From a virus (lineage: Duplodnaviria; Caudoviricetes): a stretch of DNA of 64,000 nt. The notes beneath the pieces were generated by a model. The model made no database searches and was not told the DNA's origin. It saw only the letters and a program-made list of their open reading frames with translations. Shown one piece after another: positions 28,020 to 56,390 of the stretch; within the stretch, counting starts at the first letter, position 1; every line of letters starts with the position of its first letter. The stretch covers positions 1 through 64,000 of IMG/VR virus record IMGVR_UViG_3300028048_000038; one strand, 5' to 3'. The position numbers and the translations under genes were made by a program.

Positions 28020-28037
28020 TTGTACTTTTTTAAGTCT
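28020..28037 (+). repeat. 18-bp junction motif TTGTACTTTTTTAAGTCT
   Basis: Copies at 28020, 29449, 29785, 55431, 55819, 56096, 56373. Confidence 0.8.
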
Positions 28038-28106
28038 ATATATACAGAAATGTGCTGACTATCCTCACGGACAATCAGCACTATATTGCTTATGGTCAAA
28101 TCTTCT

Positions 28107-28361
28107 TTACTTTGTCATGGCTTTGAGTTCAGCCTTGATGCGCTTTGCTGTCTCACCTCTCCAAGTTGATGCATTTCCAAGGAAATAGAGCACGATGGTC
28201 TTTGCTGAATCAAACATATAGTTGTCGTTGATAGAATCGAGCGTAGCCATTGCATCGAGGTATGGCTTTGCACCAAAATACACGTTTTTCCAATCGTTCT
28301 TGATGTCACGTGCAATCTCATAGAGAGGACGTGTTGCTGTCTTTGTTGCTGTCTTTGCCAT
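28107..28361 (-). CDS. Hypothetical protein
   Basis: 84 aa with own promoter; YFLGNASTWRGETAKRIKAEL. Confidence 0.7.
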   Translation of the reverse strand: MAKTATKTATRPLYEIARDIKNDWKNVYFGAKPYLDAMATLDSINDNYMFDSAKTIVLYFLGNASTWRGETAKRIKAELKAMTK

Positions 28362-28465
28362 AATTCTAATCGTTTTATTTGTTTTCTGTGATGTAAATAT
28401 ACGGATTTATTTTCAATTAGCCAAGAGAATTAACATTTTTAACACAACTTTCAAGCCTGTGTGTG

Positions 28466-28774
28466 TTACACGCACAGACCTTGCAGTATTGGAGAACTAA
28501 TAGTGTCCACCCAAACATCTATAGTATCATAAACTTCACAACCGCCATTAGGTGTCATGAATATGGTTGTTGCAATGCTCTTATAGTTCACATCGAAGAA
28601 TGTATTATTTCCCAAGAACTTTCCACCACAGAAACATGGGTCTATGTTAAGATTAAATCCATTCAACTTTTTGAAAGCATCCTCAAACTTCATTGTGCTA
28701 ACCAAACGGCACAAATCCTCTCTGTCTCTTTTACCGAGTTCTGTTGCTAACTTGACGATAATTTCTCTTTCCAT
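28466..28774 (-). CDS. Hypothetical protein
   Basis: 102 aa with own promoter. Confidence 0.6.
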   Translation of the reverse strand: MEREIIVKLATELGKRDREDLCRLVSTMKFEDAFKKLNGFNLNIDPCFCGGKFLGNNTFFDVNYKSIATTIFMTPNGGCEVYDTIDVWVDTISSPILQGLCV

Positions 28775-28947
28775 AATCTTTAATTGCTGTTTTGATGGTG
28801 CAAAGGTACGAAAAAAAATTGAATTGACAAAAGAAAATCAGGGTTTTAACATTTTATTAACACAATTAATTATTTTGTTAAAAAGTATTTATTTTCTTGG
28901 TTATTTCACTGGAATTTCGTATCTTTGCATTACATTAGTAAGATATA

Positions 28948-29160
28948 GTGTATATGGAAAAGAGAATAAAGTTTCAATATCAAGTGAAGCAAGTCAAGGG
29001 AATGTTCTCCATGAGCACCATTGAGCGTTACGAGGTAAAAGAACTTATTCACGTTTGTGACCCCAATAAGAGCGACAGAGAGAATCTTGATGATGCTTTC
29101 TGCAAGGCTTGTGACTTGGGCGCAAATCCAAACAAACAAGTTAGATGGAGTTTTATTTAA
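28948..29160 (+). CDS. Hypothetical protein
   Basis: Promoter at ~28895-28930. Confidence 0.55.
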   Translation: MYMEKRIKFQYQVKQVKGMFSMSTIERYEVKELIHVCDPNKSDRENLDDAFCKACDLGANPNKQVRWSFI

Positions 29161-29175
29161 ATTGAAAATAAGATT

Positions 29176-29448
29176 ATGGATATTACAGCAGAGATTAACA
29201 AGTTAAAGAAAGTTGCCAAGGAGAATGGTTTGGAAGTAAGATTTCATGACCATAAGACCAATGCTGGTGATTTCTGCATTTTTATCTATGATAAATCTGT
29301 AAGAAATTCGTATATTGTTGGTTTTGATGGGTATTGGAATAGTAAAACCTTGCCGTTTGATGTATGTCTGCGTTCAGCATACCATTGGATTGAGAATCGT
29401 GACAAACGTTATATCAGAGAGAATGGTGTTTGGAGGTATATAGGATAG
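29176..29448 (+). CDS. Hypothetical protein
   Basis: 90 aa. Confidence 0.6.
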   Translation: MDITAEINKLKKVAKENGLEVRFHDHKTNAGDFCIFIYDKSVRNSYIVGFDGYWNSKTLPFDVCLRSAYHWIENRDKRYIRENGVWRYIG

Positions 29449-29466
29449 TTGTACTTTTTTAAGTCT
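29449..29466 (+). repeat. 18-bp junction motif
   Basis: Directly after the TAG of 29176..29448. Confidence 0.8.
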
Positions 29467-29474
29467 TATATAAT

Positions 29475-29765
29475 ATGGAAAAGGTATTTGGTGAAGTCCA
29501 TTATTACGACTGCAAGGGTAGACAATATCGTCTTGACCATCTTCGTAATGAGATTGAACAAATGGGCATAGAAGTCAATGGTACGTCATTCAATGACGAT
29601 TATGATGGTTATGTTGAGGTTATGGTTACATTGGAGCAAGCCATTGAACTTAGCAAGAAGTATAAGAGGTTTGTCTTACCAATTGGTAAGGGTAACACAA
29701 TAGAAGAACAATTCAACGATGCTCTTAGGATTGAAAGAATGGTGAATAAAATAAGAAAAGGATAG
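29475..29765 (+). CDS. Hypothetical protein
   Basis: 96 aa, flanked by two junction motifs. Confidence 0.6.
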   Translation: MEKVFGEVHYYDCKGRQYRLDHLRNEIEQMGIEVNGTSFNDDYDGYVEVMVTLEQAIELSKKYKRFVLPIGKGNTIEEQFNDALRIERMVNKIRKG

Positions 29766-29784
29766 GTTACTAGCCTATCCTTTT

Positions 29785-29802
29785 TTGTACTTTTTTAAGT
29801 CC
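29785..29802 (+). repeat. 18-bp junction motif
   Basis: ttgtacttttttaagtcc. Confidence 0.75.
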
Positions 29803-30049
29803 ACCCATTTCTGATTCCAAGTGTACGAAGCACATAAACCATATCCTTGTGGAGATTGTTTATATCTTTCCCATACGCTTTAAGGGTTTTTGCGACTGCT
29901 ACAGCAAGTTCTGCTTCTTCTTGTGTGTCGAATCCAAGTGATGGTATCTTCAAATCATCTGTTGATTTTGTAAGGTAGTATTTAACCTTACCTTTTTCAT
30001 AACCAACTTGAACATTCTTATTTTCCGTATTAACGTTGTTCATAATCAA
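29795..30049 (-). CDS. Hypothetical protein
   Basis: 84 aa. Confidence 0.6.
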   Translation of the reverse strand: MIMNNVNTENKNVQVGYEKGKVKYYLTKSTDDLKIPSLGFDTQEEAELAVAVAKTLKAYGKDINNLHKDMVYVLRTLGIRNGWT

Positions 30050-30066
30050 TTTGTTTTAATTGTCCA

Positions 30067-30369
30067 TTAATAATACATTCTAAAGGCGAAGTATTTTGTT
30101 TCTACATTATGGTGTATGTTGAACAAATCTGTCTCAATCATATCCATCAGCCTTGCATAGTCTAACGTGAAGTCGAAATAGAAGTTTCCTAATGGTGTTT
30201 CAAGACCATTGAGGAATACCAACATATGCGCATCTCTGGTAATATACACATGACTATATTTCTTTGCAAAATTATTATTGCCCTCGAATGTTATTGCTCT
30301 CACACCATTATCAATGAGTGTCTGCTTAATGAGTTCTTGATATAAACTTTTTGTAGTTACTTTTGCCAT
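30067..30369 (-). CDS. Hypothetical protein
   Basis: 100 aa, promoter upstream. Confidence 0.6.
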   Translation of the reverse strand: MAKVTTKSLYQELIKQTLIDNGVRAITFEGNNNFAKKYSHVYITRDAHMLVFLNGLETPLGNFYFDFTLDYARLMDMIETDLFNIHHNVETKYFAFRMYY

Positions 30370-30467
30370 ATCAGTATATTTTTAATTGTTGATGCAAAGA
30401 TACGAAAAAAAACTGAGATAACCAAAAGATTACCCCAGTTTTAACAATTATTTTAAAGAGAATCAGA

Positions 30468-31154
30468 TTATGCCCAACATCTTGCTCTTGCTTTTGCTGA
30501 CATGTGGTCGCCATACTTGAATGGGTCAGTGCCTTCATCAGCCACTTTCTGCAATGTTCCAATCACGTCTTCCAATTGGCTAATAGCTTTGAGTGATTTA
30601 TTTGCAAGCGTTTGCAATCCCAATCTACGTCCTTTGCCGTTGATACACTCATGGCTTTTATATGCTTCGAGCAATCCGCTTTCAGCAGCACCTTTCATGA
30701 TGTCGGTGATATGCGTTTTGATGTCTTCAATTTTCCAAGCCACCTTTTCCACATACTGGTATGCTGCCTTTTCATTGCCCTTTGCCATGTTCTGAATATC
30801 ATCGACCAATCTTTCGAGTTCGCTTATTTTCACACGGCAGAAAACGAAGTGTGGGCGAATCTTCCTATGTTGTAGGATTTCATTTGCAATTGTGCCCCAC
30901 ATTCTATACGCATGGTCGTAATATGATGACATGGATTTCAGAATTGTAATGGGCTTTAAGAGTTTATTAATCTCCTCTGCCACAATGCTGATTTCCTTTT
31001 CCTCTTTCTTCACCTTCTTGGGCTTTGAGAGGTCAAGGAAACGCTTTTTACCTCTGCGTTCCTTTTGTTTTGCAGCCACGTCTCCTTTCCATTGTTTAAT
31101 GGTCATTTTAATGCCATTGACAATGATGTACTCATTTTCATTTGTTTTAGCCAT
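30468..31154 (-). CDS. Hypothetical helical protein
   Basis: 228 aa. Confidence 0.7.
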   Translation of the reverse strand: MAKTNENEYIIVNGIKMTIKQWKGDVAAKQKERRGKKRFLDLSKPKKVKKEEKEISIVAEEINKLLKPITILKSMSSYYDHAYRMWGTIANEILQHRKIRPHFVFCRVKISELERLVDDIQNMAKGNEKAAYQYVEKVAWKIEDIKTHITDIMKGAAESGLLEAYKSHECINGKGRRLGLQTLANKSLKAISQLEDVIGTLQKVADEGTDPFKYGDHMSAKARARCWA

Positions 31155-31158
31155 AATC

Positions 31159-31482
31159 TTATAAGTCTTTTAGATAATCCATTGTTGTGTATAAATGTTC
31201 AAGAGCGATTTCTTTCTTCTCCTTTTCTGTAATCAACTGCCACAGCATTGTACGGAGAGCGATAGAATCGAGTTCATTAATGTTGTGAACCTCATAGTTT
31301 TCATCAACACAAAAAATCGAATTACCCTTTTTGAATAACTCCTTGAACACACGTTTTTCAGTATGTTTGAAGATGCCGACCTCAAGTTTGGTCTCAACAT
31401 GCTTATGGAGTTTTGCCTTTCCATTGGCACGTGCATCCACTTTCTCTTTTATGAGTTTTAATGTTTCTGCTTTTGTAATCAT
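31159..31482 (-). CDS. Hypothetical protein
   Basis: 107 aa, promoter upstream. Confidence 0.6.
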   Translation of the reverse strand: MITKAETLKLIKEKVDARANGKAKLHKHVETKLEVGIFKHTEKRVFKELFKKGNSIFCVDENYEVHNINELDSIALRTMLWQLITEKEKKEIALEHLYTTMDYLKDL

Positions 31483-31558
31483 AATCTAAATCTTCTATTA
31501 TGTGTGCAAAGATACGAAAAAAAATTGGAATAACCAAATATTATCCCAACTTTTTTTA

Positions 31559-33118
31559 TTAATCTGTAGTAATTTTCTTCTTTAAGAGTTCTTGTTCTGT
31601 CAAATCCACAAATATTAACTCTTTCCTCGCCCTTGTAATGGCAACATATTTCAAGTTCATTTCTTGTTGTTCTTGCCATTCCTTTTGATGTGGATATTTA
31701 AGAGGTAATTTATTGGGTAATAATATAATCACCCTATTTGCTTCCAATCCCTTGCTTTTATGAGCAGTTGATAACATAACAGCATTTTCAATCTTATCAT
31801 CTGTGAACATCTTATTGATATAAGACTTCAACTGCGTTGTATCTTTAATTGAATACATACAGATGTTTTCAATGCACTTGCATCTGTCCTCTAAGTTGAG
31901 ATACTTCATTGCGTTTTTTGCAGCAGTTTCATCACACTTTCTTTCTTCTCTAATGATGTTAATCATCTTCTTCTTCTCATCGTCAAGATATTTCAATACC
32001 TCTTGAATGTTCTTTGTATTAGCGTTCTCAATGAGGTTCTTAAGGTCTTGTGCGATGTCTTTTCCCTTGACAACTGCGGTAATACCACTTTCAATCAACT
32101 TCATACAGAGTCCTACCAATGGTGCAGAAGTTCTACAGAGCACCATATCGTTCTCTCTAAAGAGCGATTTTGATAGTTCCTTGGTATGATATATCTCGCC
32201 CTTAATTGCACCCTTATGAGCCTTTATTTGAGGTACGATTTCTTGTGCCATTGCTACCATATTCGTACCACACCTATAATTGACTGACAAAGGCAGTTCA
32301 ATTGTATCATCTTGCATTGCTATTTTGTCAAAGGAATTGCAATCAGCACCAGCAAAGCCATTGATTGCTTGGTTTCTGTCACCAACTGCGATAAATCTAC
32401 CATTCTTTGCAGCGCACAACATCAACTCTCTCTGTGCCCTATTAAGGTCTTGGCACTCGTCAATAAAGACGTATTTATAAGTTGGTATTGCTTCCTTGTG
32501 GAACAATGGTAATACAATCATATCTGTATAATCAATCACCAAATCCCTTGGCATTTTATAGGCATCAGCAAGCAATATATTACATACTTCAACTTCGTCA
32601 AATAATGTTATAAGGTTATGTTCATCACAAAGTTCTCTCAACTTGGATAAATCATTTTCACTATGCCGAATGAGATTAACCCTTGCAAGTGAATACAACT
32701 TTGCCACATTGCAGCAGAATCCAAACACCTTGGCTGCGTCTGTATCTGGGGTAATGATTGATGATAACGAATATACATTCTGTTTCACATACTTATGATA
32801 CTTCCAATCATCTACCTTAACAAACATCTTGTATTGGGGATGATTATAAAACTTCTTAAGAACGTGAAAGCCGAAAGCGTGTAATGTAGATACTTCTGCA
32901 TAACCCTTTAATTTGGTCTTTAATTCCTCTACAATAAGTTTATTAAACGCAAGGAATATAACATTACGTTCTTTCTCTTTTAAACGTCTGCAAGCAGAAA
33001 CAATGGTTGTAGTTTTACCACTGCCAGCAACAGCATTAATGGCAATGTTCTCACTACCATTCTCTACTGCATCGAAAATGTCTAACTGATAATCTGAATA
33101 CTCTAATCTCTTTAGCAT
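31559..33118 (-). CDS. UvrD/Rep-like superfamily 1 helicase
   Basis: AVAGSGKTT, FIDECQD, VGDRNQAI, VNYRC, STAHKSKGLEA, YVAITRAR; start moved to ATG 33118 just downstream of the promoter. Confidence 0.9.
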   Translation of the reverse strand: MLKRLEYSDYQLDIFDAVENGSENIAINAVAGSGKTTTIVSACRRLKEKERNVIFLAFNKLIVEELKTKLKGYAEVSTLHAFGFHVLKKFYNHPQYKMFVKVDDWKYHKYVKQNVYSLSSIITPDTDAAKVFGFCCNVAKLYSLARVNLIRHSENDLSKLRELCDEHNLITLFDEVEVCNILLADAYKMPRDLVIDYTDMIVLPLFHKEAIPTYKYVFIDECQDLNRAQRELMLCAAKNGRFIAVGDRNQAINGFAGADCNSFDKIAMQDDTIELPLSVNYRCGTNMVAMAQEIVPQIKAHKGAIKGEIYHTKELSKSLFRENDMVLCRTSAPLVGLCMKLIESGITAVVKGKDIAQDLKNLIENANTKNIQEVLKYLDDEKKKMINIIREERKCDETAAKNAMKYLNLEDRCKCIENICMYSIKDTTQLKSYINKMFTDDKIENAVMLSTAHKSKGLEANRVIILLPNKLPLKYPHQKEWQEQQEMNLKYVAITRARKELIFVDLTEQELLKKKITTD

Positions 33119-33196
33119 AACGTTTGCAAAGATACGAAAAAAACATGAAACCACCAAAGATTTCATGTTAATTTTTATTATATTATTGTACTAAGT

Positions 33197-33421
33197 TTAT
33201 TTATTTATTTCGTACAATATCTCGTCTAATTTTGTGGTGATGTTTCTATCAATTTTGCCGAGTTCGCTAACAACACTTGAAATTGAATCAATTATTTCCT
33301 CATTCACCTCTCGGCACTGAGCCTTGCGCATAACAGCCCTCAAACTCTCTTTAATATCAACGATTTCCTCTCTCGTCAGTTCAAGACCTACGATACCAAC
33401 TCTTGTTAATTCTTTTGCCAT
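33197..33421 (-). CDS. Hypothetical protein
   Basis: 74 aa, own promoter. Confidence 0.6.
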   Translation of the reverse strand: MAKELTRVGIVGLELTREEIVDIKESLRAVMRKAQCREVNEEIIDSISSVVSELGKIDRNITTKLDEILYEINK

Positions 33422-33526
33422 AATATTTTTATTAATCTATTTAATTGTTATCTGTGGTGCAAAGATACGAAAAAAACGTGAACTAACCAAATAATTCACG
33501 TTAATTTTATTTAATATTATTTGTTA

Positions 33527-33901
33527 TTACCCACCAATTTCTTCAACTAACGTTTTAAGGTCTGATGTGGTCAGATTATCAACCTCGTATGGTTCAGCAT
33601 ACCATTTAATATTAGCCCATACCACACCCTCACTATCATGGAATATACCAATTACATGAGGTTTCTCCGAGTCGCTAAGACCTTGTGATTCGTCCTCACC
33701 AACAATCACATCACACTTAATTGGATTATCTTCTGTTGCATTATTAGCAGAACAGAGACATGAAATCTTTTGTCGTAATTGTTCATGCTGATAATCATCT
33801 TCTGTGAAATCATACTCACATGAAGTACAGTGATACCCATTTTCTGTTTCCACAATGCAGTGTTCATCACCGCAGAATGGACAAGTCATAATTACTTTCA
33901 T
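33527..33901 (-). CDS. Zinc-ribbon protein
   Basis: CPFCG...YHCTSC. Confidence 0.6.
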   Translation of the reverse strand: MKVIMTCPFCGDEHCIVETENGYHCTSCEYDFTEDDYQHEQLRQKISCLCSANNATEDNPIKCDVIVGEDESQGLSDSEKPHVIGIFHDSEGVVWANIKWYAEPYEVDNLTTSDLKTLVEEIGG

Positions 33902-33987
33902 ATCTTATTCTCTTTTTAATTGTTGGTGCAAAGATACGAAATTATTTCCAATCTACAAAACTTATTAAGATTTTTTAAGAAATAAAT

Positions 33988-34322
33988 CATGGGGAAGAAG
34001 CCGAATTGCTTCCTCCCCTTACAACGACAAGAATCAGTAACAATTAAAAAGATTAGATTAATTGTTGAAGGAGCTGAATTTGAATCAGCGAAGCTTCCGA
34101 AGAAGCACACTAAGCACGAACTTAGTGCCCATTTGTCCACATCAGTCTTGCGACTGTTCTCCTCTGGTATCCTTCAAATATATCTTTGAAAAGTAAGGTG
34201 TTCTCCGCTGAGAAACTTTTTTATGGTGTTCTCGTCTTCTTCCTAATGCCCTCACATCTTGAACTATTCAGAGGGATTTGTTCTCCATTTAAACCTTGCT
34301 TTATGTCTATCGTCTCATTGAC
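33988..34322 (-). ncRNA. Putative small RNA with four GAGAACA repeats
   Basis: Promoter at 34324-34360, hairpins, terminator ~33990-34020, no convincing ORF. Confidence 0.45.
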
Positions 34323-34384
34323 AATGCAAAGATATATCTGATTTTCTTAAATTCCAAATTTTCTCATAACTTTTTAACAGTTTT

Positions 34385-34714
34385 TTACATTTCGATGTTC
34401 TCAATCATATCAAATATGTGTGTGAATACGATTGCTGCAAGTGTTGGAGCATACATCTTTATTGCTTCCCAATCAAAATAGTATTGTTCCTCATTGTTAT
34501 CAATAAACCAAAGTTCAACACCAAATTGGTTGTTAACACGGAGTGATAACAAATCCCCCTTGAACACACACTTTGGAAACTTTATTGTTAAATTCTCGCT
34601 GAATGGTTTCGGCAAATTTGGAAAATATTCAAATTCTTCTCCATTAAACTCACCTTTTGCAATGATGAACATCGCAATCAATTTCTCAATTCCTATTGTA
34701 ATTTCTTTATCCAT
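34385..34714 (-). CDS. Hypothetical protein
   Basis: 109 aa. Confidence 0.6.
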   Translation of the reverse strand: MDKEITIGIEKLIAMFIIAKGEFNGEEFEYFPNLPKPFSENLTIKFPKCVFKGDLLSLRVNNQFGVELWFIDNNEEQYYFDWEAIKMYAPTLAAIVFTHIFDMIENIEM

Positions 34715-34721
34715 ATTCTTT

Positions 34722-35347: not shown

Positions 35348-35348
35348 A

Positions 35349-49683: not shown

Positions 49684-50040
49684 GTTAGTTTGTTGTTAAT
49701 CTAACTCCAAGAATATTAACCCTATCATCATTAAGAGTAACATCTGCTGTCGCAAAGTAGTCAATCAAATCCGTTGCTTCAACCGCATCAATTTGAGTAT
49801 CATCAAACTCATAGTCGATGTCAATCGTCATTGTGTAAGTTCCTTTTATCATACTTTCAATCTCCTTTTAATTTATTTGTGGTGCAAAGATACGAAAACT
49901 TTTTGAATTGACAAAGGAAAAATGGATTTTTTTTTGTAATTGGCTGGTTTTTTAACCCTTATTAACAAAAAATGGGATTGATGAATACTCATCAACCCCA
50001 CGTAAACATGGAAATCAATACCAACTAAAACATTATGTCC

Positions 50041-50211
50041 TCAATCTCTATTAAGTATCTGTGATTCACGTTCACCACAAATCACAAACTCCTTCAAATC
50101 CGCTTCTTCTGCTCTATTTCGAGCCTTTTCAAGTGCTTCCCCCTCATCCTTTGCATCTACCTCTGTGGTGTATGATGCGTTAAAATTACATTGAATTGTG
50201 TATTTTCCCAT
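50041..50211 (-). CDS. Hypothetical protein
   Basis: MGKYTIQ...EVDAKDEGEALEKAR. Confidence 0.55.
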   Translation of the reverse strand: MGKYTIQCNFNASYTTEVDAKDEGEALEKARNRAEEADLKEFVICGERESQILNRD

Positions 50212-50215
50212 AGTA

Positions 50216-50557
50216 TTATGCTGCTTTCTTTGGTACGATTTCAACACCATCACGATATAAGGTGTTGAACGTGATTAAACAATGAATAACACCAATCTCA
50301 TCAAATGATTCAAGTTTCTTATCACTTATCTTATTGATGTAATCCTTAACAGCCGTAGCCATTTCTTCACTCTCCCTAACCGCTTTGAGAGTGGGATATT
50401 TCATGTCATATCTATGACCCTTATAGTTCTCACAATACGCATAACCATCGTAAATCTCAAATGGTATCTGTGTCTTGAAACCCTCGATGGAAAGTTTCTC
50501 AGTACCCACTTTCTTACCACATAGTTTCTCCCAAACCTTACTCTCGTTATCTACCAT
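50216..50557 (-). CDS. Hypothetical protein
   Basis: Start placed at MVDNESK downstream of the promoter. Confidence 0.6.
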   Translation of the reverse strand: MVDNESKVWEKLCGKKVGTEKLSIEGFKTQIPFEIYDGYAYCENYKGHRYDMKYPTLKAVRESEEMATAVKDYINKISDKKLESFDEIGVIHCLITFNTLYRDGVEIVPKKAA

Positions 50558-50726
50558 TTCATTATTAATTTGATTAATTACTACTTTGGCAAAGATATAA
50601 AAAAAACGTGAGAATCCCAAGAATTTCACGTTAATTTTTGTTAAGGACAACAATGTATCGCCCATGTGCCACTTATAACCAATAATATGAGTAATATATA
50701 ATATATGGTCTCTATTACCTTATCAC

Positions 50727-50969
50727 TCATAATTTGCTATTAATTAAATTCAACATATCAGCATCAACATTCTTTGAATAAAGAGGAAATCTTTTATTCC
50801 TATAAAGAGCACCATCAATCTTAACTGAAATCATCACTTGGGTATAACCAACCCAACTCAACTTATTGCCGTTTGGCAACTCGATGTCAAGGTTGTGGCA
50901 ACCACCCTTAATAACACCCAACTTCTTTAATTTGGCAATAATCTCATTTACAATACTTTTCTTACTCAT
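50727..50969 (-). CDS. Hypothetical protein
   Basis: 80 aa, promoter upstream. Confidence 0.55.
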   Translation of the reverse strand: MSKKSIVNEIIAKLKKLGVIKGGCHNLDIELPNGNKLSWVGYTQVMISVKIDGALYRNKRFPLYSKNVDADMLNLINSKL

Positions 50970-51058
50970 ATCTCAATCTCCTTTATTGTTTCACAATGCA
51001 AATATACGAAATTATTTTGAATCTACCAAATTTTTTATGTTAAAAATGTGGTGGGGAA

Positions 51059-51880
51059 TTAAAATCCCCAATCCACATCACTCTCTTTGTCAAGATTAAT
51101 TACGAATGGTGTCTCTGGTGCTACAAAGTGCCCACTCTTATAATCGTTTGCGGTCTTATGGTAGTGCAATCCCATGATAGAACGCTTGGGGTCAAGATAG
51201 CGCATATCGTATTCATTTGCATCTACTACATCATAACCCCTAAACTTCTTGGGTAAGATACCCTTTTCAGAATAGAACACCACTGCGACCTTACCATCGT
51301 TCTGTAAGAACTTTTCGCACTCGTCCCAGTTATAACCATCATAACTGAATGTAAGGTCGTAATTCTTATAGGTCTCCAATAGTTTTGTCCTATTATAAAC
51401 TTTCGTGTAATCATAGAAAACTACATCATTGAACAACTCTAAGATGTTCTTACCAGTCTTGGGGTCTCTGAAAGCGAGTGGTGAAAGGTCGCTTGTGCCA
51501 TTGAGACGAACACTAAAACCATAACCCATACGCTTTGCCTTTTCACGTTTGCTCTCTATCTCATGAGTGAGCATATCCATGAATAAACCTCTATTCTCAT
51601 AGAACAACTTGGTTTTCTTGATACGTGAACGATTAATCTTAGAACCCTCAACACCACGAGCAAGTTCATCACACTTATTCTGCCCACTACCATTCAAACA
51701 GAACTCATGACAATGCTGCCCCTTTGGGCACACATTGTAGCCACTCATTTTCCAAGGAGCGAGGTACAAACAATATGTCATTGTTCCATGCTCATAAGAG
51801 AGACGCATTTTCATGCTCTGTGCAACACTACCTAAGTAACTAATTCCTAACTCTTTTTTTGCTTTGATGTAACCTAACAT
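51059..51880 (-). CDS. Gp88-like protein (radical-SAM-like Cys motif)
   Basis: LYLAP...NVCPKGQHCHEFCLNGSG, VRLNGTSD, FYDYTK, YDLTFS, DMRYLDP. Confidence 0.7.
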   Translation of the reverse strand: MLGYIKAKKELGISYLGSVAQSMKMRLSYEHGTMTYCLYLAPWKMSGYNVCPKGQHCHEFCLNGSGQNKCDELARGVEGSKINRSRIKKTKLFYENRGLFMDMLTHEIESKREKAKRMGYGFSVRLNGTSDLSPLAFRDPKTGKNILELFNDVVFYDYTKVYNRTKLLETYKNYDLTFSYDGYNWDECEKFLQNDGKVAVVFYSEKGILPKKFRGYDVVDANEYDMRYLDPKRSIMGLHYHKTANDYKSGHFVAPETPFVINLDKESDVDWGF

Positions 51881-52086
51881 AATCTTTATCTCCTTTTTAA
51901 TTGTTTCGTGATGCAAAGATACGAAAAAAAAATGGATTAACCAAAAGAAAAACCAATTATTTTCAATTTAAAATAAAATTTTTCTCTTTTCTTTATATAT
52001 AACATACTTTGCATATTGGGAGAACCAAATACATTCTCAAAAGTTCTATGAATAAGCCTACTCATTATCTTTCTACAAAAACAATA

Positions 52087-52461
52087 TTAATCTAAAATAA
52101 ATTTCACATCAGCCATTTGTGTGCCACAATCCTCCCTATTGCAAAGGATATTATAACCACTTAACAGATTTTCATCATAGATAGTTAATATCATATCATC
52201 ATCTATCCTCTCCCCACAATTAGGACAAGTGATAATGAAATCCTCATAGTTATTCAATGGGAAATATAATACTCCCATAGAAATGAGTAATTTCAATACC
52301 TTACTATTACACTCCCCATCATAGATAGCAAGCATACCATTCATTCCATCGTAACTATTGAATAACTTAAATGCCTTGCTATCTACCGCATCATTCATAA
52401 GCAATTCAATTTCCTCTGTGGGAATATATACTCTTATCCTATATGTCTTATTCACTACCAT
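52087..52461 (-). CDS. Zinc-ribbon protein
   Basis: CPNCG...CNREDC. Confidence 0.55.
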   Translation of the reverse strand: MVVNKTYRIRVYIPTEEIELLMNDAVDSKAFKLFNSYDGMNGMLAIYDGECNSKVLKLLISMGVLYFPLNNYEDFIITCPNCGERIDDDMILTIYDENLLSGYNILCNREDCGTQMADVKFILD

Positions 52462-52462
52462 A

Positions 52463-52735
52463 TTAATCTATATCAATAGACATTTGCCACAAATAGGTTG
52501 CACCTACCTTATAAGGCTTGCCATTTGAAGACACCTTATTAACAAACTCCTTATCACCATATACATCGTGATAGTAACTATCTTTAGCAAAGGTATAAAT
52601 CACCTCAAAGGTAGAATAGCCAAATTCGTCTTTCTCGCTAATCTCCTTGACTGACTTCACCTTAACCTTAACATATCTGTAAGGCATCATGCAACCATCA
52701 CAAGTATTCAATCTCGGTTTTCTTTTTTTCATCAT
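52463..52735 (-). CDS. Hypothetical protein
   Basis: 90 aa, promoter upstream. Confidence 0.55.
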   Translation of the reverse strand: MMKKRKPRLNTCDGCMMPYRYVKVKVKSVKEISEKDEFGYSTFEVIYTFAKDSYYHDVYGDKEFVNKVSSNGKPYKVGATYLWQMSIDID

Positions 52736-52825
52736 AATCTAAATCTTTAACAATGCAAAGATACGAAATTATTTTGAAATAACAAAGAAAAATCCCCACT
52801 TTTTTAAGATGGGGATTAATTTTCT

Positions 52826-53923
52826 TTAGGCTGCTGCGAGACAAAGGTCAAATGTTTTCTGCACCTTTTTGTAGATGTTGCCATCTAAGATGCTATCGAA
52901 CTTGATTTCCTCGCTACGTTCTGTGGCTTCATTCTGATAGTAAGAGGTCAAACCATTCATCAGCCATAACGCTGTTCCACGCTCTTGACCCTCTTGACCT
53001 ACACCACTCTCCAAGCACTCCTTAACACCTAAGAAGATGTTACGTCCACGAGTCTTGATTGCATCGCTATAAATGTTGTGATTCTCCAAGAAATCCTTTG
53101 CAGCCTCTGGTGCCAACACAACCTCTGCAATGATGTTATCAAGGTCTCTCTCAGCCAACTTGATGTTGCGTAAGTGTTCAAAACTCTCTTTCAACCCATT
53201 TGCATATACATTGGCTACATTAAGAGCCTTATAAGCAAACTCAGCGTTTTCCTTATTCAAGAGGTCAAGACGTGACATCACCTTTGATGAATGACGGAAA
53301 GCAATACGACCAATGTTGTTCTTCATTGCCCAATTCAGCGTATTGTTACATACCACACGAACTGGTGTAACCATGCAGCGAACTGAACCAGTACCATCAT
53401 GTGAGGTGGTGAACACCACATACATATCTACGAGGTCATCACGCTTTGCATCCAAGACAATGCTCTGTGGGAACTTTGCGGTAACAAACACACGCTCACC
53501 ATTACCAAGCACACCACAAGTCTCAATCACTGGGGTATTGTCTCTATCAGCAAACTTACCGCTACAGAACATATCCACGAACTTGAAAGCGTCCTCGTTC
53601 TGTACGATACCATACTTATCAGATACGATGCCAAGGCTCTTGTTGCTATCGAGACGCATTGTAGCCATAGTGTTGTCCACAAGCAGACTCTTTAACATTG
53701 CAGCGTTGATAAACTCGCCATTGTCCATAGCATTACGTAACTCGTCAGAGAGGGCTATCACTGGCTGCAAACCTACGTTGTAATCAGCGTGACAAAGTTT
53801 CAACGCATCCTTCACGAACATTGGTTCATCTACCACTTGTCCAAGTCCATGCCAAGCACGCTCTCTACGTCCGTTCTCTGCAAAACTTGCACCTCTCTCT
53901 GTAATCTCAATCATTGCGCTCAT
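52826..53923 (-). CDS. DUF932 family phage/plasmid protein
   Basis: AWHGLG, LGIVSDKYGIVQNEDAF, TSHDGTGS, TPVRVVCNNTL, GTALWLMNGLT. Confidence 0.85.
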   Translation of the reverse strand: MSAMIEITERGASFAENGRRERAWHGLGQVVDEPMFVKDALKLCHADYNVGLQPVIALSDELRNAMDNGEFINAAMLKSLLVDNTMATMRLDSNKSLGIVSDKYGIVQNEDAFKFVDMFCSGKFADRDNTPVIETCGVLGNGERVFVTAKFPQSIVLDAKRDDLVDMYVVFTTSHDGTGSVRCMVTPVRVVCNNTLNWAMKNNIGRIAFRHSSKVMSRLDLLNKENAEFAYKALNVANVYANGLKESFEHLRNIKLAERDLDNIIAEVVLAPEAAKDFLENHNIYSDAIKTRGRNIFLGVKECLESGVGQEGQERGTALWLMNGLTSYYQNEATERSEEIKFDSILDGNIYKKVQKTFDLCLAAA

Positions 53924-54045
53924 AACTAATCTCCTTTTCTTTTAATTGTTAATAACTGATATATTTTCTATCTCGATGCAAAGATACAAAAACTTTTTGA
54001 ATCTACCAAATTTTTTCTTAAAAATCTTCAATTGATTAATGATTT

Positions 54046-54471
54046 TTAATAAGGATAATCTATTTCCTTAAAATAATCAATAATCTTCTTTGAGGTCTCT
54101 GCTGCATACTTGTTTCTTGGGTCAAAACAACCATTCTCACAATTCTCAGCCAATGACTTGATATATTCCAAACATACCTTGAACATTTCATTCTGCAAAT
54201 ATCTATGCTCACGGCACATTCTCTCTGCTACCTTTTTCTTGCTGCGGCATTTACCATTCACAAAGTTGCCAAAGAAACGTGCAAACACATCATCGTTATC
54301 TTCGCCACATCGAGGGCAAAGGTCATAGGTGAATCTCTCAATTACCTTGTTCTTTAAGAACTCTTTATCCTCTTCTGATGTGCTATCAGAATTGATAAGG
54401 TAAATGAGGTCACTATTACTTAATTCGTAACTCTCATACTCTCTTCCGTTAATTGTGAATTTCTTGCTCAT
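54046..54471 (-). CDS. Hypothetical protein
   Basis: EHRYLQNEMF...FDPRNKYA; start placed at MSKKFT. Confidence 0.65.
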   Translation of the reverse strand: MSKKFTINGREYESYELSNSDLIYLINSDSTSEEDKEFLKNKVIERFTYDLCPRCGEDNDDVFARFFGNFVNGKCRSKKKVAERMCREHRYLQNEMFKVCLEYIKSLAENCENGCFDPRNKYAAETSKKIIDYFKEIDYPY

Positions 54472-54697
54472 ATCTCCTTGAATTTTAATTTGCGATGCAA
54501 AGATACGAAATTCCCAGCACATGACCAAGAAAAATACCAAAAAAATTACGTTCAATTGAAAATATTTCCACTTTCTTTACAAAAACCATATATACCTTTT
54601 ATAATATATTATATAGGGGAAAATTAAATTTAAAATAAATCCATTATTATTTGGTTATTCCAATTAAATTTCGTATCTTTGCAAAAAATTTAGAGAC

Positions 54698-54916
54698 ATG
54701 GATAAGAATAGTAATGTAAGAGTAGTGTGTTTACCAATGAGCCAATATGATAAGGAATGGCTTGATACCCTTAAAGATGAAGAACTAAGCGAAACAGCGT
54801 GTGCTGATGGTTTTTCTCTTATTTATGGAGACCTTAAAGAGTTCCAAGAGGCTCTCAATTTGTCTTCTGGAGTTGATATTGTACGTAATTATTGGATTTA
54901 TTTCTTAAATGACTAA
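54698..54916 (+). CDS. Hypothetical protein
   Basis: Promoter at 54650-54683. Confidence 0.6.
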   Translation: MDKNSNVRVVCLPMSQYDKEWLDTLKDEELSETACADGFSLIYGDLKEFQEALNLSSGVDIVRNYWIYFLND

Positions 54917-54954
54917 GGAATAAACTATATAAGGTTACACCAAATTTTGAATAT

Positions 54955-55287
54955 ATGAATAGAATTGAATTAAAGAAAGCAAGACTACAATTGTATAAAC
55001 CATCACCCACAAAGTTTCAACTTGTGGCTAAATTGGATGACCTTATTACACATTGTCATGGTAATAATATACGAGTTAATGGGCTTAGATTCGATTCAAA
55101 CTCATTCAAAGTCGGAGAACTATACGTGAGGATGATTGAAGTTAAACCAAATGACATCGCCCATGTATTGATACATTGGTATCCAAATTACCAAATATCT
55201 AACCAATCTGACCCATTCTGCTCTGCATACATCATGGAACAATGGGAAATTGAATTAATACTAAATAAATTAAGAAACATTTTGTAA
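54955..55287 (+). CDS. Hypothetical protein
   Basis: 110 aa. Confidence 0.6.
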   Translation: MNRIELKKARLQLYKPSPTKFQLVAKLDDLITHCHGNNIRVNGLRFDSNSFKVGELYVRMIEVKPNDIAHVLIHWYPNYQISNQSDPFCSAYIMEQWEIELILNKLRNIL

Positions 55288-55548
55288 CCAAAAATATATA
55301 AAATGGTTGCAAAGTGTTACTGACGCACATACGAAAATTTTTCAAAGTGTAAGGTAAATAATAAAAATACTTTACACAATGTTGCTGTTGTACATCATTT
55401 CACTGATGTTCAATGGTAACAACGTTGCCGTTGTACTTTTTTAAGTCTAATATATCCAAATAATGGTTAATATATTTGGTTATTCCAAATATTTTGTATA
55501 TCTTTGCATTATATAATATATTAACTTAATTAACTTAGAGATAATATT

Positions 55549-55818
55549 ATGGCGTATTTTAAGATTAGTGAACCAAATAAACCCATTAAATGGATTAAGG
55601 AGGTTGATAGTGCAAATGGAACATTGTCGTTCCAAAACTCAAGAGACGGAGCACACTATGAAGATGAAGGTTTCTTCGCTGACTCAGAGTTGGATTATAT
55701 CAAGTTCCATTTTAAGGAGAAGTATCCAGAACTAGAGTATGTAACCATCGATAGCGAATATGATGAGGATTACGATGGCGAAGACAATTGGGATTTGGAA
55801 GCTCCTGTTGTGGGATAG
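55549..55818 (+). CDS. Hypothetical protein (paralog of 55864..56082)
   Basis: ADSELDYIKFHFKEKYPELE vs AKTEIEFLVHHLKNEHKELE. Confidence 0.65.
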   Translation: MAYFKISEPNKPIKWIKEVDSANGTLSFQNSRDGAHYEDEGFFADSELDYIKFHFKEKYPELEYVTIDSEYDEDYDGEDNWDLEAPVVG

Positions 55819-55863
55819 CTGTACTTTTTTAAGTCTAAATAACTAAATTAATACTATATAACT

Positions 55864-56082
55864 ATGGCAAAAGGTGTAGCAAAAAACGATGATGGCTTAA
55901 TGGTTAAGTCATACGATGTTGATAATAGTGAGGTGGAATTCACCACCAATATTAAAGAGGCATATAACTATGGTGCTCTAGGTGAATGGGACGCAAAGAC
56001 TGAAATAGAATTCCTTGTACATCACCTTAAGAATGAGCATAAAGAACTAGAAACCATGAAATATACTATAGTACCTTGTTAA
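55864..56082 (+). CDS. Hypothetical protein
   Basis: 72 aa. Confidence 0.6.
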   Translation: MAKGVAKNDDGLMVKSYDVDNSEVEFTTNIKEAYNYGALGEWDAKTEIEFLVHHLKNEHKELETMKYTIVPC

Positions 56083-56115
56083 TAACAAATTGGTGTTGTA
56101 CTTTTTTAAGTCTAA

Positions 56116-56328
56116 ATGAATAATAAGGTAAAACTTGAATTCACATTTAAGGGGAGAAAGAATACATACTTTAGAAGAATGGATGCCTTCGGTAAACCCC
56201 TTACAACCACAAATATTAATAGTGCTAAATTGATAAAAGAATCTGAAATACCTTCAATCCTTAAATCAATGATTAAGGAATATGGTAAAGAAAGTATTAC
56301 AGATGTAAAACCAATAAAAGAAGGATGA
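56116..56328 (+). CDS. Hypothetical protein
   Basis: 70 aa; TTNINSA resembles TTNIKEA of its neighbour. Confidence 0.6.
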   Translation: MNNKVKLEFTFKGRKNTYFRRMDAFGKPLTTTNINSAKLIKESEIPSILKSMIKEYGKESITDVKPIKEG

Positions 56329-56390
56329 GTATATTAATCTATACCCATCCTTTTTTATATCAATAACCCTACTTGTACTTTTTTAAGTAC

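What the first reader, a model, noticed from the sequence alone, without database searches (positions are those of the whole stretch)
28020..56390. Polar 18-bp motif TTGTACTTTTTTAAGTCT punctuating gene junctions at both edges of the early array
Seen: seven copies, all on the plus strand, in two clusters (28020, 29449, 29785; 55431, 55819, 56096, 56373). They abut stop or start codons: directly after TAG at 29448 and 55818, 2 nt before ATG 56116, and overlapping or abutting stops at 29795 and 56391. They bracket single genes, three of which are paralog-like. The core is a dyad, ACTT-N4-AAGT. Inference: site-specific cassette-integration sites (integron-like), or polar protein-binding sites for DNA injection, packaging or replication. 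The motif matches neither promoter type.
Basis: partly seen in the sequence, partly recalled or inferred. Interest (0 to 1): 0.72.

Follow-up and report, generated by a model that had tools for sequence, protein, structure and literature searches.

The report
One-way 18-bp joints between phage gene modules
A giant cattle-gut phage and its relatives mark the seams between small swappable genes and RNAs with one exact 18-base DNA word that always points the same way along the genome. Relatives differ by whole modules exchanged exactly at this word, but which protein reads it is not known.

Summary
TTGTACTTTTTTAAGTCT occurs seven times (≤2 mismatches), all on the + strand, and its 12-nt core occurs nowhere else in the 409,537-bp phage genome.

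The same word (consensus TTGTACTTWTTTAAGTCY) occurs in 26 other related records. It keeps one orientation (138 copies to 5) and the same two clusters about 25 kb apart. It is absent from bacterial genomes, apart from one phage-like contig binned with a Prevotellaceae MAG.

- **Position:** it lies between genes, at co-directional and convergent junctions (46, 31 and 39 copies) and rarely at divergent ones (6).
- **Polarity:** it follows the genome, not the neighbouring genes.
- **Module exchange:** between relatives, homology breaks within 0-2 nt of its edges. The units between copies are replaced, added or lost: ORFs on either strand, tRNA and ncRNA genes, or empty spacers.
- **What it is not:** a stable RNA hairpin, a host-type promoter, an attC site or a dif site. 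No recombinase lies nearby.

Best reading (about 0.4): a DNA-level, protein-read module joint where cassettes are exchanged, as with T4 PeSLs. It probably also serves + strand transcription as a terminator tail or restart.

Rivals are a phage-sigma promoter, a polar roadblock or Ter-like barrier, and a nick site. The scan has noted similar one-way boundary motifs in other giant phages, but not this word.

The parts
28020..28037 (+). Motif copy 1 (TTGTACTTTTTTAAGTCT). It follows the terminator hairpin of an ncRNA unit and faces the 3' end of - gene 28107-28361.
29449..29466 (+). Motif copy 2. It lies directly after the TAG of gene 29176-29448 and 8 nt before ATG 29475.
29785..29802 (+). Motif copy 3 (…AAGTCC). 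Its T-run is the tail of hairpin 29754-29786, and it contains the stop codon (29795-29797) of - gene 29795-30043.
55431..55448 (+). Motif copy 4. Its first TTG is part of the stem of hairpin 55411-55433. A host-type promoter (55475-55506) follows.
55819..55836 (+). Motif copy 5 (CTGTAC…). It lies directly after the TAG of gene 55549-55818 and 27 nt before ATG 55864.
56096..56113 (+). Motif copy 6, 2 nt before ATG 56116.
56373..56390 (+). Motif copy 7 (…AAGTAC, full 6-bp dyad). It abuts the stop of - gene 56391-56921.
27416..27433 (+). Degenerate copy (ACGTACTCAAATAAGTCT, 12.6 bits), about 20 nt downstream of host-type promoter 27362-27393 and therefore inside the ncRNA transcript. It is intact (ACGTACTTAAATAAGTCT) at the same place in G001, G003 and L147.
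25206..25223 (+). Degenerate copy (TTGCACTTATATAAGCCT, 12.5 bits) where + genes 23191-24937 converge on the sigma gene.
27112..27129 (+). Look-alike (TTGGACTTTATTAAGTCT, 18 bits) inside ORF 26656-27285. It is conserved with the coding sequence in G004. Function doubtful.
29475..29765 (+). Swappable module: a 96-aa ORFan plus its hairpin. G001, G002 and G004 have an unrelated 80-81-aa gene here. Other relatives have other ORFs, a tRNA or an empty spacer. Homologs also occur in unrelated phages without the motif.
29795..30043 (-). Present/absent module (82-aa gene). It is missing in G002, where the motif abuts the next gene.
30050..30065 (+). Possible relic of a right half-site (TTTGTTTTAATTGTCC) at the far junction of the 29795-30043 module.
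   Evidence: the alignment to the motif is by eye, so this is weak
55549..56328 (+). Three single-gene modules (89, 72 and 70 aa), each followed by a copy. The first two belong to one family. The third is replaced, truncated or absent in G002, G003, L023 and L144.
29176..29448 (+). Conserved 90-aa gene whose stop abuts copy 2.
27362..28015 (+). ncRNA module: host-type promoter, about 600 nt without an ORF (containing a 93-nt tRNA-Met-like call), and terminator 27982-28011. It is bracketed by a degenerate copy and copy 1.
28897..28927 (+). Host-type (Bacteroidota) promoter that starts island A. The equivalent promoters for island B are at 54650-54681 and 55475-55506.
25381..26094 (-). Phage sigma-70-family gene (regions 2 and 4), next to island A in every relative.

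Best explanation
The motif is a lineage-specific, orientation-locked DNA site (TTGTACTTWTTTAAGTCY). It forms the joint between small accessory modules in two hyperplastic islands of a clade of roughly 300-410-kb rumen/gut jumbo phages with Bacteroidota-type promoters. It is most likely read as duplex DNA by a protein. Proposed mechanism: because all copies are direct repeats, recombination between two copies, in one genome or between co-infecting relatives, excises, inserts or replaces whatever lies between them without ever inverting DNA. This is the logic shown for T4-type PeSL cassettes and, in a different way, for integron cassettes. The enzyme is inferred to be the phage's general recombination machinery acting on the 18-28-bp identity, perhaps stimulated by a break or a stalled polymerase at the site. 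A dedicated integrase is not inferred. The site's exact sequence is probably held constant because it also has a role in every infection, most plausibly in + strand transcription. Its T-run is the tail of the terminator hairpin that abuts many copies, and it sits just ahead of + genes that have no other promoter. Shown: the motif is real, polar, clade-wide and confined to two clusters; modules are replaced at its edges; it is not a stable hairpin, a host-type promoter or a host repeat. Inferred: that recombination at the site is a selected function, the nature of the enzyme, and the transcriptional role.
For: - **Non-random and private to two islands:** 7 copies against 0.37 expected, and none elsewhere in 409 kb.
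- **Conserved across relatives:** the same word, the same two clusters about 25 kb apart and a single orientation in G001, G002, G003 and G005. Over 27 records the count is 138 copies in the majority orientation and 5 in the minority (binomial P about 1e-34).
- **Polarity follows the genome, not the genes.** In G005-like relatives the same-strand copies lie between minus-strand genes.
- **Contexts:** (+,+) 46, (+,-) 39, (-,-) 31 and divergent (-,+) only 6 (convergent versus divergent P=5e-7).
- **Module content differs between copies.** The slot after the 90-aa gene holds a 96-aa gene (window, L296), an 80-81-aa gene (G001, G002, G004), a 47-aa ORF (G003), a 106-aa ORF (L008), a tRNA-like gene (L078) or an empty 109-nt spacer (L155, L145).
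- **Homology breaks at the motif.** Window versus G001: 29476 and 29775. Window versus G002: inside copy 3. In the genuine one-side-homologous pairs the break lies 0-2 nt from an edge. In L411, homology resumes at the first base of copy 2.
- **Minus-strand ORFs use the motif's own TAA or TAR as their stop** in about 13 of 70 cases.
- **The 96-aa module exists in unrelated phages without the motif**.
- **Transcriptional side:** stable hairpins abut about 40% of copies that follow a + gene, with the motif's T-run as the tail. Nine of 25 + genes that start within 40 nt after a copy lie behind such a hairpin and have no host-type promoter.
Against: - No recombinase lies near either cluster. The only tyrosine recombinase is at 408.9 kb, and no serine recombinase or Y1 transposase was found.
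- The 25-kb array between the clusters is just as mosaic among the window, G001 and G002 without any copy of the motif, so module swapping does not need it.
- Eighteen bp is short for homologous recombination.
- The arms are intact in every copy found, across phages whose flanking DNA is only about 70-85% identical and whose sigma proteins are only about 30% identical. The search pattern required the arms, so degenerate copies are undercounted. Variants are slot-specific rather than homogenised within a genome. Both points argue for a function in every infection rather than for evolvability alone.
- A single transcriptional role does not fit all contexts. There are 39 copies between two gene 3' ends, copies in reverse orientation to local genes, and a copy about 20 nt inside an ncRNA transcript.
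Confidence: 0.4

Rival explanations
1. A + strand promoter, or promoter core, for one of the three phage sigma factors, with the start at or just after the motif's 3' end. It would be a sense promoter for the small + genes of the islands. Elsewhere it would be an antisense promoter firing into the 3' ends of minus-strand genes. Module swapping at the motif would be a PeSL-like by-product.
For: - It is a contiguous, highly conserved, one-way word placed 1-36 nt ahead of + genes that lack a host-type promoter.
- It often follows a terminator hairpin.
- Its left half, TGTACTTTT, resembles the phage's host-type -7 region CGTAYCTTTG (by eye).
- The sigma gene 25381-26094 is next to island A in all relatives.
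- The right edge abuts a + start or a - stop in about 54% of copies.
- A uniform + polarity is trivially explained.
Against: - About 77 of 127 copies have no gene start next to them, and 39 lie between two 3' ends.
- Starts 1-2 nt after the motif are real coding starts, because synonymous changes against G001 show selection on the first codons (by eye). Transcription would therefore have to begin inside the motif, leaving almost no leader.
- An 18-bp contiguous block is not the two-box layout of sigma-70-family promoters with regions 2 and 4.
- The motif stays constant while the neighbouring sigma diverges to about 30% identity.
- No other + strand island of the genome has it.
Confidence: 0.2
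2. A polar protein-DNA roadblock. An unidentified phage protein would bind the asymmetric dyad and stop a polymerase coming from one side. That polymerase could be RNA polymerase (stoperator-like silencing or insulation of the islands against the dominant leftward transcription). It could instead be a replication fork (a Ter- or Sal-box-like barrier guarding the start of the roughly 350-kb minus-strand gene block from head-on forks). Stalled polymerases would make the site recombinogenic.
For: - Polarity is fixed to the genome, whichever way the neighbouring genes point.
- The half-sites are consistently unequal: GTACTT on the left, RGACTT as the complement of the right arm in 76% of copies.
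- The copies form clusters with back-up copies.
- Cluster A sits exactly where + or mixed genes meet the long minus-strand block, in the window's genome (29.8 kb) and in G003 (135.5 kb).
- The sites favour gene 3' ends and are rare at divergent junctions.
- Each copy is strongly conserved.
Against: - No binding protein has been identified. All neighbouring ORFs lack family or fold matches.
- Other convergent switches in G003 carry no copy.
- GC skew tracks gene strand and does not independently place a terminus.
- Stoperators are oriented with local transcription, and these copies are not (PMC9283540).
- A copy inside the ncRNA transcript and copies inside + operons would block needed transcription unless binding is conditional.
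Confidence: 0.17
3. The recognition site of a phage site-specific nickase, giving localized single-strand interruptions in the + (mostly non-coding) strand of virion DNA, as in T5, phiKMV-like and tf/LUZ24-like phages. Nicks would make the sites recombination hot spots.
For: - It is a strand-exclusive consensus with few copies, at positions conserved among relatives. These are the defining sequence signs of nick sites in tf and phiKMV-like phages (PMC3517423).
- The strand that carries the motif is the non-coding strand for most genes.
- Breakpoints lie at the motif edges.
Against: - Known nick sites are spread along the genome, not packed at every gene boundary of two small islands (PMC3517423).
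- No nickase candidate was found.
- Physical nicks cannot be tested on assembled sequence.
Confidence: 0.08
4. A true integron-like system, in which a dedicated but unrecognised recombinase among the ORFans catalyses site-specific capture and excision of cassettes at the 18-bp site.
For: - The copies are direct repeats that bound single modules.
- Sense-oriented modules have no promoter, while reversed modules carry their own.
- ORF stops run into the site.
- A host-type promoter precedes the first site of each array.
- The T-rich, asymmetric centre could act as a crossover region that sets direction.
Against: - No integrase or serine recombinase lies nearby.
- The site is far shorter and far more sequence-conserved than attC and does not fold.
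- There are two separate platforms, and in G005-like phages the copies are dispersed.
- The conserved neighbour f8 shows no recombinase-like fold.
- Copies keep slot-specific variants rather than mixing.
Confidence: 0.08
5. An RNA-level element: an intercistronic hairpin, an RNase processing site or a translational operator in the + strand mRNAs.
For: - The dyad could form a 4-6-bp stem.
- Position 18 is C or T opposite G3, compatible with G:C or G:U on the + strand only.
- Copies sit between cistrons of + operons.
Against: - Predicted stability is about 0 to -0.5 kcal/mol, and -4.0 only for the rare full palindrome.
- There is no covariation beyond chance.
- No Rfam match was found.
- Many copies lie downstream of terminators or on the antisense strand of minus-strand operons, where the + RNA would not normally exist.
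Confidence: 0.03

Closest known systems
PeSL (promoter-early stem-loop) cassettes of T4-type phages (PMC2839356, PMC4122927)
   Same: Both are short conserved intergenic motifs, often next to a terminator stem-loop. Both sit between small ORFans in hyperplastic regions. In both, indels and replacements between close relatives have their junctions at the motif, and recombination between direct copies is the proposed mechanism (mini-circles were shown in T4-type phages).
   Different: A PeSL contains a strong host sigma-70 promoter and is oriented with transcription. This motif is not the host-type promoter of its phage (which is present separately). It is only 18 bp, keeps genome polarity even inside opposite-strand operons, and also bounds tRNA, ncRNA and promoter-only units.
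Integron attC/attI cassette arrays
   Same: Both are directly repeated sites at the 3' end of single-gene cassettes. In both, sense cassettes lack a promoter and sit behind a platform promoter, stop codons overlap the site, and content varies between relatives.
   Different: There is no adjacent IntI. attC sites are 57-141 nt, conserved in structure but variable in sequence, and act as folded single strands. This site is an 18-mer conserved in sequence with negligible folding energy, and there are two or more platforms.
Mycobacteriophage stoperators (L5 / Cluster A repressor sites; PMC9283540)
   Same: Both are many copies of a short asymmetric site in short intergenic spaces within operons, with a strikingly uniform orientation. 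Stoperators are read by a protein that halts elongation in an orientation-dependent way.
   Different: Stoperator orientation follows the local direction of transcription, and the sites are spread over the whole genome of temperate phages. Here the orientation ignores local gene direction, and the copies are confined to two islands of a jumbo phage with no identified repressor.
Localized single-strand interruption (nick) sites of T5, phiKMV-like and tf/LUZ24-like phages (PMC3517423)
   Same: Both are consensus words found on one strand only, in a handful of copies, at positions conserved among relatives. In phiKMV-like phages they lie on the non-coding strand.
   Different: Those sites are spread along the genome and are not known to bound gene modules. 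Nicking cannot be seen in assembled sequence.
Sequence-conserved terminator motif of phiKZ (hairpin followed by TTATKYYGT; PMC10914365)
   Same: Both are jumbo-phage terminators made of a hairpin plus a conserved sequence tail. Here about 40% of copies that follow a + gene have a stable hairpin abutting them, with the motif's T-run as the tail.
   Different: Most copies have no hairpin, some lie inside operons or inside a transcript, and many are antisense to local genes.
Polar fork/transcription barriers (Tus-Ter, and the rDNA Sal-box/TTF-I and Fob1 barriers; from general knowledge, not checked in a paper here)
   Same: Both are repeated, co-oriented sites of about 18-23 bp with back-up copies, placed where head-on collisions would begin. 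Arrest at such barriers stimulates recombination.
   Different: There is no evidence of fork arrest, no terminus independently located, and no binding protein. Such barriers have not, to my knowledge, been described in phages.

Membership tests
Integron (attC cassette array) | Adjacent IntI-type tyrosine recombinase | tested here: not met
   The only PF00589 hit in the genome is at 408900-409352, beside a separate inversion system. No resolvase was found.
Integron (attC cassette array) | attC: 57-141-nt imperfect palindrome, structure conserved and sequence variable | tested here: not met
   The site is an 18-mer with intact arms in every copy retrieved. Folding energy is 0 to -0.5 kcal/mol.
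Integron (attC cassette array) | Co-oriented sites bounding single cassettes whose content varies between relatives | tested here: met
PeSL cassettes (T4-type) | The motif contains a host sigma-70-type early promoter | tested here: not met
   The motif has no TTTG...TAnnTTTG layout. Host-type promoters occur separately at 28897-28927, 54650-54681 and 55475-55506. The E. coli-type scan is at chance level.
PeSL cassettes (T4-type) | A stem-loop terminator is part of the unit | tested here: inconclusive
   About 40% of copies with a + gene upstream have a hairpin of -10 kcal/mol or stronger in the 45 nt to their left, against 6% when a - gene is there. Terminator calls lie at 27982-28011, 29754-29786 and 55411-55433. 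Copies 29449, 55819 and 56096 have none.
PeSL cassettes (T4-type) | Indel and replacement junctions between close relatives fall at the motif, in hyperplastic regions of small ORFans | tested here: met
   all module ORFs lack family matches
PeSL cassettes (T4-type) | Mini-circles formed by recombination between copies | not testable with these tools
   This needs reads or PCR on phage DNA.
Stoperators (Cluster A mycobacteriophages) | Site orientation correlates with the local direction of transcription | tested here: not met
   The same polarity is found between + genes and between - genes.
Stoperators (Cluster A mycobacteriophages) | Bound by a phage repressor that halts elongation | not testable with these tools
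   No candidate was identified.
Localized nick sites (T5, phiKMV, tf) | Consensus present on one strand only, at positions conserved among relatives | tested here: met
Localized nick sites (T5, phiKMV, tf) | A physical, ligatable nick in virion DNA at the site | not testable with these tools
   Only assembled sequence is available.
dif / pdif modules (XerC/XerD) | 28-bp site with two 11-bp arms and a 6-bp centre resembling host dif; sites flanking a module in opposite orientation | tested here: not met
   Only 18 bp are conserved and all copies are direct. The rows listed are scattered single hits rather than a Bacteroidales-wide single-copy site. No similarity to the general dif consensus was seen by eye.
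REP/RAYT-like or IS200/IS605-derived palindromic elements | A Y1 HUH transposase in the genome and genome-wide spread at gene 3' ends | tested here: not met
   No PF01797 hit. Copies are confined to two clusters. The 3'-end bias is shared.
Intrinsic terminator / structured RNA | Stable stem with covariation, followed by a U-tract, on the transcribed strand | tested here: not met
   The motif alone is unstable and shows no covariation. Many copies are on the antisense strand of local genes. The T-run does serve as the tail for adjoining hairpins in some copies.
Ter-like polar replication barrier | Co-oriented sites near the replication terminus, bound by a terminator protein | tested here: inconclusive
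   Cluster A lies at the convergent strand switch that opens the long minus-strand block in G000 and G003. Skew does not locate a terminus independently, and other convergent switches have no copy.

The most novel reading that the evidence does not exclude
The 18-bp word is the recognition site of a dedicated, still unrecognised DNA enzyme or barrier protein of these jumbo phages: a nickase, a recombinase without an integrase fold, or a Ter-like fork trap. Its one-way action creates breaks at fixed seams. That would give the phage an integrase-independent cassette-capture system that swaps ORFs, tRNAs and ncRNAs as plug-in units.
Probability: 0.2. Interest if true: 0.85.

Novelty: new variant of a known kind. 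Interest (0 to 1): 0.6.

Why it matters
Giant phages of gut Bacteroidota carry hundreds of small genes of unknown function, and how they gain and shed them is poorly understood. Here a single exact 18-base word delimits the swappable units in a whole clade. It keeps one direction regardless of gene direction and is found at the edges of every well-resolved exchange.

If the word is read by a dedicated enzyme or barrier, it would be a cassette system of a new type. If it is a PeSL-like regulatory seam, it extends that mechanism from T4-type phages to unrelated Bacteroidota jumbo phages with a non-promoter joint.

In practice, the word is a precise marker for finding the accessory-gene islands of these phages in metagenomes. 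It also gives primer anchors for testing module circles.

Tried and rejected
- **Host repeat or host regulatory site.** A scan of 185,579 species genomes gave scattered single hits across unrelated phyla. The only multi-copy record is one 3.2-kb contig with 3 copies in a Prevotellaceae MAG, which is probably phage DNA.
- **Known RNA family.** Rfam at permissive E-values found nothing at the copies.
- **Hairpin or covariation.** None beyond chance, and the stem is unstable.
- **Dedicated enzymes.** One distant tyrosine recombinase, no resolvase and no Y1 transposase. There was no PF00940 hit; the control genomes lack that family, so this is weak evidence. There was no RNAP beta-subunit hit.
- **Function of island and neighbouring ORFs.** Pfam and PHROGs gave nothing, even at E≤5. 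PDB sequence searches gave nothing.
- **Fold of the conserved 240-aa neighbour 56932-57654.** The AlphaFold model had mean pLDDT 70, with a confident C-terminal domain, and had no Foldseek PDB match at E≤0.001.
- **Sigma/motif co-variation.** Relatives of the neighbouring sigma beyond the clade are generic 25-32% hits without the motif. Within the clade the motif does not change, so the test has no power.
- **Comparison with the mosaic array.** BLAST block ends in the 25-kb array are not sharply tied to host-type promoters. Block ends in 70-85% identical DNA are imprecise, so I do not rely on this contrast.
- **TATA-like boxes beside the motif.** They are enriched only next to + gene starts (24 of 46 copies) and are otherwise near background, so they do not define a promoter geometry.
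- **Precise junctions for modules that sit in different slots (f31, f40).** The sequences are too diverged.
- **Near-identical strains of island B (L407-L409).** They show no module difference.
- **phages collection.** It has no near match to the island.

Full report
**1.
- The 18-mer occurs at 28020, 29449, 29785, 55431, 55819, 56096 and 56373, all on the + strand with 0-2 mismatches. Dinucleotide shuffles expect 0.37 matches.
- The window is bases 1-64000 of a 409,537-bp virus record. The 12-nt core ACTTTTTTAAGT occurs exactly seven times in the whole genome and never on the other strand.
- A weight matrix built from all relatives finds only a few weaker + strand copies: 25206, 27416, the in-ORF look-alike 27112, and 265295. 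At 10 bits or more there are 14 hits on + and 1 on -.
Two copies directly follow a TAG, one lies 2 nt before an ATG, one contains the stop of a minus-strand gene, and one abuts such a stop.

**2. Setting.**
- The genome is transcribed almost entirely from the minus strand between 29.8 and 377 kb.
- The copies lie in two small plus-strand islands, 26.2-29.8 kb and 54.7-56.3 kb. These islands flank a 25-kb minus-strand array.
- Each island begins with a Bacteroidota host-type promoter, TTTG...TAnnTTTG, at 28897-28927, 54650-54681 and 55475-55506.
- The phage has three sigma-70-family genes, one of them (25381-26094) beside island A. No RNA polymerase subunit was found.
- All island ORFs are ORFans.

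**3. The word belongs to a clade.**
- Exact and degenerate scans of IMG/VR found it in multiple copies in many rumen or gut virus contigs.
- G001 and G002 (about 412 kb), G003 (295 kb) and the 154-kb fragment G005 each have 6-10 copies on one strand. The copies form two clusters about 25 kb apart, and there are none elsewhere.
- From 128 distinct copies the consensus is T-T-GTACTT-W-TTT-AAGT-C-Y-A. The centre is restricted to W-T-T-T. The two half-sites are consistently unequal: GTACTT on the left and RGACTT as the complement of the right arm in 76% of copies. The search pattern required the arms GTACTT and AAGT.
- Over 27 records, 138 copies share the majority orientation and 5 do not. The 5 are nearly perfect palindromes (P about 1e-34).
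- Bacterial and archaeal genomes show only scattered single hits. The exception is a 3.2-kb contig with three copies binned with a Prevotellaceae MAG, which hints at the host.

**4. Polarity follows the genome, not the genes.**
- In the window's type of genome the copies lie between plus-strand genes.
- In G005-like relatives the same-strand copies lie between minus-strand genes. The stop of the right-hand gene abuts or overlaps the motif's right edge, and the start of the left-hand gene lies 24-48 nt to the left.
- Over 127 copies the contexts are (+,+) 46, convergent (+,-) 39, (-,-) 31 and divergent (-,+) 6. Convergent against divergent gives P=5e-7.
- The motif therefore goes with gene 3' ends and seams, not with promoter regions.
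- About 13 of 70 minus-strand neighbours use the motif's own TAA or TAR as their stop codon.

**5. Modules are exchanged at the motif.**
- The slot after the conserved 90-aa gene (29176-29448) holds a 96-aa gene in the window and in a 288-kb ENA contig.
- The same slot holds an unrelated 80-81-aa gene in G001, G002 and G004, a 47-aa ORF in G003 and a 106-aa ORF in L008.
- In L078 it holds a tRNA-like gene among extra copies. In L155 and L145 it holds only a 109-nt spacer with two hairpins.
- Against G001, homology ends at 29476 and resumes at 29775. Against G002, the 82-aa minus-strand gene 29795-30043 is missing, with the left break inside copy 3.
- In pairs of copies whose flank is at least 80% identical on one side and unrelated on the other, the genuine breaks lie 0-2 nt from the motif edge. 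A few of the listed pairs are only shifted alignments, not real breaks.
- In L411 an extra 68-aa gene precedes copy 2, and homology to the window resumes at the first base of the motif.
- The last slot of island B holds the 70-aa gene, a different 45-aa ORF, a truncated copy or a minus-strand gene in different relatives.
- Homologs of the 96-aa gene also sit in unrelated phage contigs that lack the motif, so the gene travels independently of it.
- Units bounded by copies also include the roughly 600-nt ncRNA at 27362-28015. In G001 and G003 even its promoter alone is bounded by copies.

**6. What it is not.**
- It is not a stable hairpin. Folding energy is 0 to -0.5 kcal/mol, and -4.0 only for the rare full palindrome. 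There is no covariation and no Rfam match.
- It is not the host-type promoter, and not the second, ATATTTAT-type upstream motif that occurs in 45 upstream regions.
- It is not attC and not dif-like.
- No recombinase lies nearby. The genome's single tyrosine recombinase is at 408.9 kb, next to the inversion system an earlier report described. No resolvase or Y1 transposase was found.
- The conserved 240-aa neighbour of island B has 81 homolog clusters, no family and no PDB fold match.

**7. Transcription-related hints.**
- About 40% of copies that follow a plus-strand gene have a stable hairpin abutting them, against 6% when a minus-strand gene is on that side.
- The consensus scan calls terminators at 27982-28011, 29754-29786 and 55411-55433. 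For the latter two the motif's own T-run is the tail.
- Nine of 25 plus-strand genes that start within 40 nt after a copy lie behind such a hairpin and have no host-type promoter. Either the hairpins leak or the motif restarts transcription.
- The left half of the motif resembles the phage's -7 region (by eye).
- phiKZ shows that jumbo phages can have terminators with a conserved sequence tail (PMC10914365).
- No single transcriptional role fits the 39 copies between two 3' ends, the copies antisense to local operons, or the copy about 20 nt inside the ncRNA transcript.

**8. Weighing the readings.**
- Module exchange at the motif is shown by comparison. That exchange is the motif's selected function is an inference.
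- Against that inference, the 25-kb array between the clusters is equally mosaic among the window, G001 and G002 without the motif.
- Also against it, each copy is conserved far better than its surroundings and keeps slot-specific variants. This argues for a job in every infection.
- I therefore put a PeSL-like composite first, at about 0.4. In this reading a protein-read, orientation-locked seam serves plus-strand transcription punctuation. As the only sequence shared between otherwise unrelated modules, and always a direct repeat, it is also where modules are excised, inserted and replaced (PMC2839356, PMC4122927).
- The rivals are:
  - a phage-sigma promoter with sense and antisense targets (0.2);
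  - a polar roadblock for RNA polymerase or for replication forks (0.17);
  - a nick site (0.08; PMC3517423);
  - a true site-specific cassette system with an unrecognised enzyme (0.08);
  - an RNA element (0.03).
- The roadblock idea gains a little from cluster A sitting exactly where the long minus-strand block begins, both in this genome (29.8 kb) and in G003 (135.5 kb). But other convergent switches lack the motif, and skew does not locate a terminus.
- Stoperators share the asymmetric, intergenic, one-way character but follow local transcription (PMC9283540).

**9. Novelty.**
- I found no description of this word or of these phages' islands.
- The kind of element, a conserved seam that mediates modular shuffling, is known from T4-type phages. 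Earlier reports of this scan describe comparable one-way boundary motifs in other giant phages (e1-5678773, e1-1943777). I did not check those reports.
- New here are the non-promoter 18-bp asymmetric dyad, its strict genome polarity across opposite gene orientations, its restriction to two conserved platforms, and the range of units it bounds.
- I rate it a new variant of a known kind, with interest 0.6.

Noticed in passing
window 27362-28015 (+): A roughly 600-nt unit with no ORF has its own host-type promoter and a strong terminator (27982-28011). ARAGORN calls a 93-nt tRNA-Met-like gene at 27679-27771 inside it, but Rfam finds nothing. It may belong to the tRNA-like, Ro60-handle RNA family that other reports describe in this genome.
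   Followed up: partly
whole genome G000 (upstream regions): A second upstream motif, (A)ATATTTAT(A), occurs in 45 of 178 upstream regions that lack the host-type -7 box. It is probably a phage-specific (middle or late) promoter class.
   Followed up: no
G000 25381-26094 (-), about 179.5 kb (-), about 261.1 kb (-): The phage has three sigma-70-family genes. No RNA polymerase subunit was detected, so it seems to redirect the host enzyme.
   Followed up: partly
window 29800-54700 versus G001 and G002: The 25-kb minus-strand array is extremely mosaic among three phages of about 410 kb. There are dozens of replaced, inserted or deleted segments, roughly one per kb, and flanking blocks are only 70-92% identical.
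   Followed up: partly
L078 about 2975-3060 and L154 about 8105-8150: In relatives, tRNA-like genes sit as modules directly beside motif copies. One lies on the + strand between two copies. One lies on the - strand with its CCA end 7 nt from the motif.
   Followed up: no
window 31559-33166 (-): The UvrD-like SF1 helicase next to island A is 535 aa here and 508-520 aa in several relatives, but only 331-350 aa in G001 and G002. In those two it may be truncated or split.
   Followed up: no
G000 265295-265312 (+): An isolated motif-like copy (TTGTACTTTTTCAAGACC, 19 bits) lies about 4 kb from the second sigma gene. Its context was not examined.
   Followed up: no
G000 ends: The record is flagged as having inverted terminal repeats, but only the first 50 nt equal the reverse complement of the end. 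This is likely an assembly artefact. The recombinase at 408.9 kb and the inversion region at 0.1-9.8 kb suggest that the contig is a cut circle or a permuted genome.
   Followed up: partly
window 56932-57654 (-): This 240-aa protein is conserved beside island B in the W-like and G005-like relatives examined (not called in L130). It has 81 homolog clusters, all unnamed. It has an acidic, disordered N-terminal half and a confidently folded C-terminal alpha/beta domain (invariant His204 and Cys206) with no PDB match.
   Followed up: partly
L151 about 919-960 and L132 about 5064-5105: A minus-strand host-type promoter abuts a motif copy, so its transcript would start inside the motif. A second copy lies about 110 nt downstream. 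Together they bracket a short unit with no ORF.
   Followed up: no
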